This document shows positions 62,801 through 64,000 of a stretch of DNA of 64,000 nt, piece after piece; positions within the stretch are counted from its first letter, which is position 1, and every line of letters begins with the position of its first letter. Position numbers: made by a program. The stretch is from Callorhinchus milii (lineage: Eukaryota), in NCBI RefSeq assembly GCF_018977255.1, contig NW_024704783.1, positions 248,001 through 312,000 on the forward strand. Reading direction: 5' to 3'.

Positions 62801-64000
62801 TAGAGGTGAGTGCGTGTGAGTATGAGTCTGGGTGGGACTGGGTGGAATTGAATGTGTCTGAGTGTGACTGGGCCTGGGTGGGAGTGAGTGTGTGTGGGTC
62901 TGGGTGTATGAGTGTGTGTGTGTGGGGGGGGGGTCTGGATAGATGTGCGTGCGTGTGAGTGTAAGTGCATGTGAGTGTGTGTGAGTGGAAGCGGATGTGA
63001 GTGTGAATGAGTGTAATTTTTTTACAAGGTACATTTATGGCTAATCGCTTTTTGAAGTGAATATGTATTTGTATAGGAAGTTTAGCGATAAAGTCAATAG
63101 TTTTACATCCGAGATACTGCTACTTGTAGAATGCGATGTTATTTAGTGAAAACGAAAATATCCTGGAAGGGAACAAGTGTCGCTGACATTTGCAATTCTG
63201 AAGCTGCAAATAAAATCCAGACTGAGATTGGATTTTCTATGGTGATGTCGAATGATTTGTGAAAGCACTATTAACTTTTTGGGGGACTGTTGGGGTGGGG
63301 CGGTCTGGTGTTGGGGGATATCTGATGAGTATCTGACACATGTGGAAACCTATGACCACGCTTATGAGTATTCAAAACAAAATAATGGTGGTATTAACTT
63401 GGTGCTAACATCCGTTGAAACCAAAGGATGTACGTCCTCACTCTTCAGATTGCACTTAATTTGAAATCAATACCTCTGTTCCTGACTCATAGTTACAACA
63501 ATTATCTTTATTTGAGTAAATTTTTCCATGAAATCATACATGACAATGCAATGATACTGAGGCGGGTGCACAAAAGCATAAGCAAAATGTTATAGAGACA
63601 CTCACCGACACGCATTGAAGGTGTCCATCAGGACTAGGGCAATGTTCATCAGACTCGGTTTAACGCTGGAATTACTAACGGTTCTGGTCAGGGTCTTCAG
63701 TGGTAAGGTTTCATGTCCGACCACACAGGGGTAAGCGAGACCACTGTTCCACTCTCCGGCTGAGATGGACAACATGCTGTACATGGAGTAGTTGTGATCT
63801 GCTCTGTCTGCCATCACCTCAGTGTTCCGGTAGTTCTTGGCATCAATCAACTGCTCATTCACAGTCCACTGTACAACGATATCTCTGGGAGCGAAATCCT
63901 TCACCAGGTAGGTGAGGGTGAGAGTGTACGGAGCAGACAATTCCTCTGCCGAGGGGAAAAGGAGATACACCGACGGTTGTTTTGTGTCCTCAACTGTGGG

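What the first reader, a model, noticed from the sequence alone, without database searches (positions are those of the whole stretch)
63602..63993. Atypical IgM terminal exon: lost B-strand Cys, lost membrane-form splice donor, lost tailpiece sequon, yet open frame
Three deviations from canonical mu. (1) LT-C-LV reads LT-Y-LV (TAC at 63910..63908), removing the intradomain disulfide while the F-strand Cys and C-strand Trp remain. (2) The S-G-K codons, which hold the internal G|GTAAA donor used to splice to TM exons, read AGC GTT AAA (63664..63662). (3) The tailpiece N-x-S sequon reads N-I-A. The penultimate Cys, the 130-codon frame, the acceptor and a polyA signal are intact. This is either a recently decaying Ig cluster or a secretion-only mu-like chain with a free Cys. 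A secretion-only chain would matter because a B cell could not use it as a BCR; germline-joined secreted IgM variants are known in sharks.
Basis: partly seen in the sequence, partly recalled or inferred. Interest (0 to 1): 0.68.

Follow-up and report, generated by a model that had tools for sequence, protein, structure and literature searches.

The report
Degenerating chimaera IgM last exon
This is the last exon of an antibody (IgM) heavy-chain gene copy from a chimaera (elephant-shark-like fish); it is still readable but has lost several parts that working copies keep, so it is most likely a copy on its way to becoming a pseudogene.

Summary
Window 63993..63602 (minus strand) is an open Ig C1-set exon with a mu-type secretory tailpiece (Pfam 8.4e-18). 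Its nearest relatives are Callorhinchus milii IgM heavy chains (at most 74% identity) and Hydrolagus colliei (58%). The animal is therefore a chimaera, probably Callorhinchus or close kin, not a shark (neighbouring GPCR 94.5% identical to C. milii).

- Tyr replaces the B-strand Cys that 37 of 37 relatives keep.
- Val replaces the Gly of S-G-K that 29 of 29 secretory tails keep.
- The tailpiece sequon is lost, but 3 of 29 relatives also lack it.

New findings:
- No mu TM exon anywhere in the 63.6 kb downstream.
- A terminal branch about nine times the median.
- Window-specific replacements fall on conserved columns as often as on variable ones, unlike the Hydrolagus control.
- An open frame is not improbable under neutral drift.

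Best reading: an IMGT "ORF"-class, decaying or orphaned IgM cluster end (about 0.6). A functional secretion-only chain is not excluded (about 0.15). The upstream exons, raw reads and transcripts could not be checked.

The parts
63994..64000 (-). Last 7 bases of the upstream intron (cccacag), giving an AG acceptor in phase 1
   Evidence: The phase follows from the open frame. The rest of the intron and all upstream exons lie outside the window.
63602..63993 (-). Terminal IgM (Cmu4 plus secretory tailpiece) exon, open frame including the TGA stop at 63604..63602
   Evidence: Pfam C1-set E=8.4e-18. 58-74% identity to Hydrolagus and Callorhinchus IgM CH4. Aligns to solved IgM Fc chains, E about 1e-36.
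63908..63910 (-). TAC = Tyr28 at the B-strand position of the intradomain disulfide Cys
   Evidence: Cys in 37 of 37 relatives. Aligned to Cys of solved Cmu4.
63866..63868 (-). TGG = conserved C-strand Trp (V-Q-W), kept
63725..63727 (-). TGT = F-strand Cys89 (Y-P-C-V-V), kept and now without its partner
63665..63673 (-). AAT TCC AGC = N-S-S sequon. Relatives carry N-K-S one residue earlier.
   Evidence: replacements N106S and K107N
63662..63664 (-). GTT = Val110 where relatives have the Gly of S-G-K, so the canonical phase-1 G|GT membrane-form donor is absent. The only GT here (AGC|GTTAAA) is in phase 0 with T at +3.
   Evidence: Gly in 29 of 29 secretory tails. Callorhinchus membrane-form models leave CH4 right after S-S.
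63670..63678 (-). TTA|GTAATT: a weak alternative GT in phase 1, 12 bases upstream of the canonical donor position, created by the window-specific N106S change
   Evidence: Its strength is judged only against the recalled MAG|GTRAGT consensus. No acceptor exon was found for it.
63638..63646 (-). AAC ATT GCC = N-I-A in the tailpiece where most relatives have N-I-S
   Evidence: N-x-S in 26 of 29 relatives, N-L-A in 3 of 29.
63608..63610 (-). TGT = penultimate tailpiece Cys, kept
63507..63512 (-). AATAAA polyadenylation signal, 90 bases after the stop
62690..63016 (.). TG/CA-rich tandem repeat just downstream of the 3' UTR. The same kind of sequence is read through in the Callorhinchus gene model P0036.
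   Evidence: tblastn of the P0036 tail to 62644..62917.

Best explanation
The exon is the 3' end of one copy (one 'cluster') of the multi-copy IgM heavy-chain family of a callorhinchid chimaera. This copy has escaped purifying selection and is decaying while its last exon is still open, which is what IMGT calls functionality class 'ORF'.

Shown:
- It is a Cmu4-plus-tailpiece exon.
- It has lost the B-strand Cys of the domain disulfide.
- It has lost the canonical phase-1 donor that relatives use to reach TM1.
- It has lost the tailpiece glycan site.
- No TM exon follows within 63.6 kb.
- It changes otherwise invariant residues as freely as variable ones.

Inferred:
- No membrane heavy chain can be made from this copy, so it cannot serve as a B-cell receptor and cannot be clonally selected.
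- The Cys-to-Tyr core change leaves an unpaired buried Cys and probably destabilises Cmu4.
- Any transcript would therefore give at best a poorly folding secretory chain.

Whether the rest of the cluster (V, D, J, CH1-3) is present or damaged is unknown.
For: - **Identity:** Pfam C1-set 8.4e-18. All 37 relatives found are chimaera IgH.
- **Lesions at family-invariant sites:** Cys 37 of 37 and Gly 29 of 29 in relatives. Mapping onto solved IgM Fc confirms the positions.
- **Relaxed constraint:** Among 18 distinct well-modelled CH4 sequences, the window has residues seen in no relative at 16 of 79 conserved columns and 7 of 50 variable columns (odds ratio 1.56, p=0.48, no depletion). The cross-genus control Hydrolagus shows 10 of 79 against 14 of 50 (p=0.037, depleted). 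In the first, looser version of the test the window departs from consensus at 11 of 56 conserved columns. The 21 relatives that enter the tree depart at 0-2, and Hydrolagus at 7.
- **Long branch:** 0.32 changes per column against a median of 0.035.
- **No membrane route:** The canonical donor is absent. No TM exon was found by tblastn with all 35 relatives, by motif scan, or by permissive tblastn with six Callorhinchus TM segments. The 23.4 kb from 63601 down to 40149 has no gap.
- **Open frame is not telling:** P(no stop) is 0.36 after 30 random substitutions and 0.20 after 55.
- **No trace elsewhere:** No identical or near-identical protein exists in the 5.8-billion-protein collection, which does hold C. 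milii secretory IgH entries.
- **Precedent:** Pseudogene IgM clusters are ordinary in cartilaginous fish, e.g. nurse shark with 9-12 functional and three pseudogene Igmu (passage read in PMC5192425). The IMGT definition of 'ORF' was read in PMC2880031.
Against: - 129 codons align with relatives without a single gap or stop, and the stop codon sits at the family's position. If the whole long branch were neutral, some indel would be expected. That expectation rests on recalled indel-to-substitution ratios and was not computed.
- Trp, the F-strand Cys, the penultimate Cys, the hydrophobic tailpiece pattern, the acceptor phase and AATAAA are all kept.
- The N-K-S glycan site was moved by two adjacent changes to N-S-S rather than lost. 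That looks like past selection.
- The window-versus-Hydrolagus contrast is only p=0.08.
- The conservativeness test was inconclusive: mean BLOSUM62 -0.09 against -0.40 for random changes, p=0.19.
- The long branch could instead reflect an old paralogue that escaped homogenisation with the other clusters. Its position in the tree is unresolved.
- Only one exon is visible.
Confidence: 0.6

Rival explanations
1. A functional, divergent, secretion-only IgM-like heavy chain. The cluster makes only a secreted, tailpiece-bearing chain with no membrane form, whose Cmu4 folds without its disulfide. It would be expressed either from a germline-joined V region or in cells selected through another cluster.
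For: - The frame is open with no gaps against relatives over 129 codons, and the stop sits at the family's position.
- The acceptor phase and AATAAA are kept.
- Trp, the F-strand Cys, the penultimate Cys and the hydrophobic tailpiece pattern are kept.
- The glycan sequon was shifted rather than lost.
- Tailpiece sequon loss is shared with a distinct Callorhinchus clade, 3 of 29 relatives.
- Two independent features agree on 'no membrane form': the lost donor and the absent TM exons.
- A precedent exists for an unusual secreted IgM subclass in nurse shark, IgM1gj (passages read in PMC5192425 and PMC4279169).
Against: - The Cys replaced by bulky Tyr is invariant in 37 of 37 relatives and in the solved Ig chains shown.
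- Replacements are not depleted at conserved columns.
- No matching protein or cDNA-derived entry exists.
- The open frame is expected by chance in 20-36% of neutral trajectories.
- A heavy chain without a membrane form cannot drive B-cell selection in a one-cluster-per-cell system. This is an inference from general B-cell biology, not tested here.
Confidence: 0.15
2. A normal, working IgM cluster misrepresented by the assembly. The three critical bases would be sequencing or consensus errors or a rare allele, and the TM exons would be missing through a misjoin or would lie in masked sequence.
For: - Each of the three lesions is a single-base change from the relatives' residue (Cys to Tyr, Gly to Val, Ser to Ala).
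- The window has four N runs totalling 797 bases.
- The first 28 kb consists of 99.3-99.9% identical duplicated blocks, which could signal assembly trouble.
Against: - The exon differs from its nearest relative at about 34 of 129 residues, 23 of them seen in no relative. The lesions therefore sit in a truly divergent copy, not in a few miscalled bases.
- There is no N within 23.4 kb downstream of the exon.
- The N runs are 187-222 bases each. Three of them sit at the same place in a repeated block far from the exon.
Confidence: 0.07
3. The exon belongs not to a classical V-D-J-Cmu cluster but to a larger array of repeated Cmu3/Cmu4-like exons, or is a solitary orphon fragment copied without the rest of a cluster.
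For: - A C. milii model of 1909 aa (P0002, 'uncharacterized protein LOC103173400') strings nine CH3-CH4 pairs. The internal CH4 copies end at query residue 109-110, the S-S|G donor position.
- The exon abuts a cluster of GPR139-like receptor genes instead of TM exons.
Against: - P0002 may be a gene-model artefact that chains tandem clusters.
- In such an array the internal donor would be needed, and it is the one missing here.
- Nothing upstream is visible.
Confidence: 0.1

Closest known systems
Callorhinchus milii IgM heavy chain, secretory form (Cmu4 plus tailpiece), e.g. P0003, P0008, P0009
   Same: Same domain, same length, no gaps, and 68-74% identity. Same tailpiece ending in a penultimate Cys, same stop position, similar 3' UTR and a similar downstream TG-rich repeat.
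   Different: - Tyr for the B-strand Cys, Val for the Gly of S-G-K, and N-I-A for N-I-S.
- 16 of 79 otherwise conserved columns are changed.
- The terminal branch is 0.32 against a median of 0.035.
- No TM exon is found, whereas Callorhinchus models splice from S-S| to a TM segment containing NLWPTASTFIILFFLSIFYSATVTLFK.
Pseudogene or 'ORF'-class IgM clusters of cartilaginous fish (e.g. the three pseudogene Igmu of nurse shark) and the IMGT 'ORF' functionality class
   Same: An open coding region with a change of a conserved structural residue and a splice-site defect, in a family that exists as many dispersed clusters (PMC5192425 passage; PMC2880031 passage).
   Different: The IMGT passage read defines the classes for V, D and J genes; applying it to a C exon is my extension. 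Only one exon is visible, so the class of the whole gene is not established.
Nurse shark IgM1gj (germline-joined, neonatal, secreted IgM subclass)
   Same: It would be a precedent for a specialised secreted IgM variant encoded by its own cluster (passages in PMC5192425 and PMC4279169).
   Different: IgM1gj is defined by a germline-joined VDJ and the absence of Cmu2. Neither can be seen here. The passages read report no loss of a domain Cys or of the membrane form. It is also an elasmobranch gene, not a holocephalan one.
Teleost IgM, in which TM1 is spliced to Cmu3 and Cmu4 carries no membrane donor
   Same: Cmu4 without a functional internal donor (PMC3570791 passage).
   Different: Teleost loci still have TM exons downstream of Cmu4; none is found here. 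Cartilaginous-fish membrane IgM keeps four C domains (PMC6795676 passage). The Callorhinchus models use the Cmu4 site.

Membership tests
IgM heavy chain terminal exon (Cmu4 with secretory tailpiece) | Ig C1-set domain | tested here: met
   Pfam PF07654 E=8.4e-18, residues 8-96, full profile
IgM heavy chain terminal exon (Cmu4 with secretory tailpiece) | Closest relatives are mu chains, matched over the last domain and tail | tested here: met
   35 + 2 relatives, all chimaera IgH, matched at their C-terminal domain. Solved IgM Fc chains matched over residues 5-128.
IgM heavy chain terminal exon (Cmu4 with secretory tailpiece) | About 20-residue tailpiece with a penultimate Cys | tested here: met
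   K-P-S-L-M-N-I-A-L-V-L-M-D-T-F-N-A-C-R, aligned to relatives and to solved IgM
IgM heavy chain terminal exon (Cmu4 with secretory tailpiece) | Intradomain disulfide pair (B-strand Cys with F-strand Cys) | tested here: not met
   Tyr at the B-strand site, where 37 of 37 relatives have Cys. The F-strand Cys is present.
IgM heavy chain terminal exon (Cmu4 with secretory tailpiece) | Internal phase-1 donor in the S-G-K codons for splicing to TM1 | tested here: not met
   GTT replaces the Gly codon, and the only GT there is in phase 0 with T at +3. Relatives have Gly in 29 of 29. The nucleotide form of the relatives' donor was not seen; it is inferred from the models' splice point, and from the PMC3570791 passage.
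IgM heavy chain terminal exon (Cmu4 with secretory tailpiece) | TM1/TM2 exons downstream | tested here: not met
   None found in 1..63601 by tblastn, motif scan or permissive tblastn. 797 masked bases were not examined.
IgM heavy chain terminal exon (Cmu4 with secretory tailpiece) | Tailpiece N-x-S/T glycosylation sequon | tested here: not met
   N-I-A. The feature is not universal: 3 of 29 relatives read N-L-A.
IgM heavy chain terminal exon (Cmu4 with secretory tailpiece) | Linked Cmu1-3 and V(D)J upstream, intact | not testable with these tools
   They lie beyond coordinate 64000, and no eukaryotic nucleotide collection was available.
IMGT functionality class 'ORF' (as opposed to 'functional' or 'pseudogene') | Open reading frame without stop or frameshift | tested here: met
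   for the one visible exon only
IMGT functionality class 'ORF' (as opposed to 'functional' or 'pseudogene') | Altered splice site and/or change of a conserved residue expected to disturb folding, and/or orphon | tested here: met
   Cys to Tyr and loss of the internal donor. Definition read in PMC2880031. Folding itself was not tested.
Nurse shark IgM1gj-type secreted germline-joined IgM | Germline-joined VDJ; Cmu2 missing | not testable with these tools
   The upstream part of the gene is outside the window.
Teleost-type mu gene (TM spliced from Cmu3) | TM exons present downstream of a donor-less Cmu4 | tested here: not met
   No TM exons found. The organism is a chimaera whose relatives splice from Cmu4.

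The most novel reading that the evidence does not exclude
A chimaera keeps a dedicated IgM-like cluster that can only be secreted. It has no membrane donor and no TM exons. Its last domain works without the canonical disulfide, and its tailpiece lacks the glycan, so it would be an innate-like polymeric antibody made outside ordinary BCR-driven selection. The open, gap-free frame, the relocated glycan site and the retained tailpiece Cys are compatible with this reading.
Probability: 0.13. Interest if true: 0.6.

Novelty: new member of a known kind. Interest (0 to 1): 0.22.

Why it matters
If it is a decaying copy, it is one more example of the birth-and-death turnover expected in the multi-cluster Ig loci of cartilaginous fish. 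It is useful for annotating the chimaera IgH repertoire as an 'ORF'-class entry that should not be counted as functional, but it is not surprising.

It would matter more if it were expressed. A heavy chain that cannot be a B-cell receptor, and whose last domain lacks its disulfide, would be an unusual, germline-determined secreted antibody in the oldest lineage with immunoglobulins.

Tried and rejected
- **Teleost-type explanation for the missing donor.** Rejected: relatives are chimaera IgM, their membrane models leave Cmu4 at S-S|, and no TM exons follow.
- **Open frame as proof of function.** Rejected by simulation: P(no stop) is 0.36 to 0.20 for 30 to 55 random substitutions. Indels were not simulated.
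- **Conservativeness of replacements (BLOSUM62).** Inconclusive for both the window (p=0.19) and the Hydrolagus control (p=0.10), so the test has no power.
- **Exact placement in the tree.** Unresolved: no starred clade holds the window.
- **Search for the same exon as a predicted protein or transcript fragment.** None among 167 longer and 5 near-length candidates.
- **Pfam on ten other ORFs of the window.** Only two 7tm_1 hits; 8 of 10 had no family.
- **Rfam.** Only 7 tRNA-like hits, none near the exon.
- **Literature on elephant-shark IgM clusters.** I found no paper in the held library that describes C. milii IgM cluster structure, TM-exon distances or pseudogene counts. The Nature 2014 genome paper mentions only the lack of IgW and IgNAR in the main text.

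Not done:
- No structure prediction, because AlphaFold is insensitive to single core substitutions and would not shift the odds.
- No search of the unnamed representative library, because its Ig hits could not be told from human ones.
Only this single exon was used.

The window is not human. The N runs were left untouched.

Full report
**What is there**

On the minus strand, the window ends inside an immunoglobulin gene.
- After the last seven intron bases (cccacag, 64000..63994), an exon starts at 63993 in phase 1. It stays open for 129 full codons from 63991 to a TGA at 63604..63602.
- An AATAAA follows at 63512..63507.
- The translation is an Ig C1-set domain (Pfam PF07654, E=8.4e-18), followed by a mu-type secretory tailpiece with a penultimate Cys.

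I made no spliced or joined model. Only this single exon was searched, and everything upstream of it lies outside the window.

**Whose gene**

All relatives found in the protein collection are chimaera IgM heavy chains. There were 35 among 167 longer candidates and 2 among 5 near-length candidates.
- 36 of the 37 are from Callorhinchus milii, with at most 74% identity.
- One is from Hydrolagus colliei, at 58%.
- A neighbouring, unrelated receptor gene (56294..57220, + strand) is 94.5% identical over 309 residues to a C. milii 'probable G-protein coupled receptor 139'.

The window is therefore from a holocephalan, most likely Callorhinchus or close kin, and not from a shark. It is not human.

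No protein identical or nearly identical to this exon exists in the collection, although the collection holds C. milii entries named 'secretory form of immunoglobulin heavy chain'.

**The three reported deviations**

All three are at the stated bases, and all three are departures from the family.
- **B-strand Cys.** It is Cys in 37 of 37 relatives and in all nine CH4 copies of the long model P0002. The window has Tyr (TAC, 63910..63908).
- **S-G-K.** 29 of 37 relatives carry a secretory tail, and all 29 have Gly here. The window has Val (GTT, 63664..63662).
- **Tailpiece sequon.** N-x-S is present in 26 of 29. The other three (P0017, P0030, P0031, a well-supported clade) read N-L-A, so the window's N-I-A is not unique.

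Alignment to solved IgM Fc chains places Tyr opposite the Cmu4 B-strand Cys, S-V-K opposite T-G-K, N-I-A opposite N-V-S, and Cys opposite the tailpiece Cys.

Six Callorhinchus models are membrane forms. They leave CH4 close to the S-S-G-K site (P0021, P0029 and P0033 directly after S-S) and continue into a TM segment. This matches the cryptic Cmu4 donor described for mouse and human (passage in PMC3570791). It also matches the statement that cartilaginous-fish membrane IgM keeps four C domains (passage in PMC6795676).

In the window, the only GT at that place (AGC|GTTAAA, G at 63664) is in phase 0 and has T at +3.

1. **No TM exon downstream.** I ran tblastn with all 35 relatives at E up to 10, a six-frame motif scan, and a permissive tblastn with six Callorhinchus TM segments. 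These found only low-complexity matches and the CH4 tail itself in 1..63601.
   - The stretch 63601..40149 is gap-free. 797 bases in four N runs further away were left as they are.
   - For scale, whole Heterodontus IgM clusters span 18-20 kb (abstract of PMC2191167).
   - Instead of TM exons, the downstream DNA holds a TG-rich repeat (62690..63016) and a set of GPR139-like receptor genes and fragments.
2. **The exon is unusually divergent.** In a maximum-likelihood tree of 18 distinct CH4 sequences, its end branch is 0.32 changes per column against a median of 0.035. Its position is unresolved among the Callorhinchus lineages, with Hydrolagus outside on a midpoint root.
3. **Its private changes ignore conservation.**
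   - Before this test I dropped 13 of 36 alignment rows as TM-spliced, read-through or mis-modelled at the ends. I then removed duplicates, leaving 18 rows.
   - The window has residues seen in no relative at 16 of 79 conserved columns and 7 of 50 variable columns (no depletion, p=0.48).
   - The Hydrolagus sequence, a working gene on a comparably long branch, shows 10 of 79 against 14 of 50 (p=0.037).
   - The direct window-versus-Hydrolagus contrast is only p=0.08.
   - A looser first version on all rows gave 11 of 56 conserved columns changed in the window. The 21 relatives that enter the tree scored 0-2, and Hydrolagus 7.

**Evidence on the other side**

- The exon aligns to relatives without any gap, and its stop is at the family position.
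- It keeps the C-strand Trp, the F-strand Cys, the penultimate Cys, the alternating hydrophobic tailpiece, the acceptor phase and the polyA signal.
- The N-K-S sequon of relatives has been moved one residue by two adjacent changes (N106S, K107N) to N-S-S, rather than lost. That looks like a trace of selection.
- N106S also creates a weak phase-1 GT (TTA|GTAATT, G at 63675), 12 bases upstream of the lost donor position.

A simulation on the exon's own codons tempers the first point. 3.5% of random substitutions give a stop, and the frame stays open in 36% of runs after 30 substitutions (about 20 residue changes) and in 20% after 55. The open frame alone is therefore weak evidence. Indels were not simulated, and their complete absence is the best argument that part of the branch evolved under constraint.

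A test of whether the private replacements are unusually conservative was inconclusive for the window (p=0.19) and for the control (p=0.10).

**Most likely mechanism**

This is the 3' end of one IgM cluster that has dropped out of use.
- Without the canonical donor, and above all without TM exons, it cannot encode a membrane heavy chain. It therefore cannot act as a B-cell receptor or be selected. This is inference from general B-cell biology.
- The Cys-to-Tyr change puts a bulky residue in the domain core and leaves the F-strand Cys unpaired, which probably destabilises Cmu4. This is inference; folding was not tested.
- With selection gone, replacements accumulate at invariant and variable sites alike, as observed.
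- In IMGT terms the exon fits the 'ORF' class: open frame, altered splice site, changed conserved residue (definition read in PMC2880031). Applying it to a C exon is my extension.
- Such non-functional clusters are ordinary in cartilaginous fish. Nurse shark has 9-12 functional and three pseudogene Igmu, with clusters 120 to over 200 kb apart (passage in PMC5192425).

I give this reading about 0.6.

**Rivals**

- **A working secretion-only IgM-like chain (about 0.15).** This fits the intact frame, the relocated sequon and the double loss of the membrane route. It has to explain the loss of an invariant core Cys and the lack of any matching protein or cDNA entry.
- **Assembly or sequencing artefact (about 0.07).** This is unlikely, because the lesions sit in a copy that differs from its nearest relative at about a quarter of its residues.
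- **An orphon fragment, or membership of a repeated CH3-CH4 array like the 1909-residue C. milii model P0002 (about 0.1).** This cannot be judged without upstream sequence.

**What stayed unchecked**

- The upstream exons, raw reads, transcripts and paralogue nucleotide sequences.
- The supplementary tables of the elephant-shark genome paper (PMC3964593). These may list IgM clusters and pseudogenes, and supplements are closed. Its main text says only that IgW and IgNAR are lacking.
- In the held library I found no description of C. milii IgM cluster structure or pseudogene counts.

**Verdict**

- The finding is a new member of a known kind and of low to moderate interest.

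Noticed in passing
window 63600..63605 (minus strand): A perfect consensus 5' splice-site hexamer (TCG|GTGAGT, phase 2) overlaps the stop codon of the exon. If it were used, the stop would be spliced out. Relatives ending C-Q-stop could carry the same hexamer, but their nucleotides were not available.
   Followed up: partly
window 1..27908: Near-identical duplicated blocks (99.3-99.9% identity, offsets of about 8.4 and 16.8 kb). 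Each carries a 334-codon open GPR139-like 7tm_1 frame (5638..6639, 14048..15049, 22472..23473) and an N run at the same relative place. This is either a recent tandem amplification or an assembly artefact.
   Followed up: partly
window 56294..57220 (+), 33461..34305 (+), 46802..47323 (-): Further GPR139-like receptor sequences. The first is 94.5% identical to a C. milii protein but has no ATG before its second TM region in the open frame. The second is split over two frames. The third is partial. The Ig exon thus abuts a receptor gene cluster that contains apparent pseudogenes.
   Followed up: partly
window about 38950..43580: Several kilobases of low-complexity C/T- and C/A-rich sequence (translations rich in S-L-S-H-T) with extreme GC skew, -0.68 at 40001..42000. 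It contains one N run at 39927..40148.
   Followed up: no
window 1791..1872, 18615..18696 (+); 2739..2810, 11161..11232, 19563..19634, 30563..30625, 39843..39905 (-): Seven tRNA-like Rfam matches (32.5-61.9 bits). Several sit inside the duplicated blocks. They are possibly tRNA genes or tRNA-derived SINE heads.
   Followed up: no
protein P0002 (C. milii LOC103173400, 1909 aa), not in the window: This gene model strings nine CH3-CH4 pairs. Each internal CH4 ends at the S-S|G donor position, and only the last carries the secretory tail. It is either a real repeated-domain Ig-like gene or a model chained across tandem clusters.
   Followed up: no
window 63546..63602 and 62644..62917 (minus strand): The 3' UTR and the TG-rich repeat behind it are similar to what the C. 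milii models P0016/P0018/P0019 (stop read-through) and P0036 (spliced into the repeat) translate. The downstream layout of this copy is therefore shared with Callorhinchus clusters.
   Followed up: partly
window 3627..4082, 12003..12485, 20451..20969 (minus strand): Open frames resembling the C-terminal tail of a LINE-type reverse transcriptase run into the N runs of the duplicated blocks. I recognised the resemblance by eye only and did not test it.
   Followed up: no
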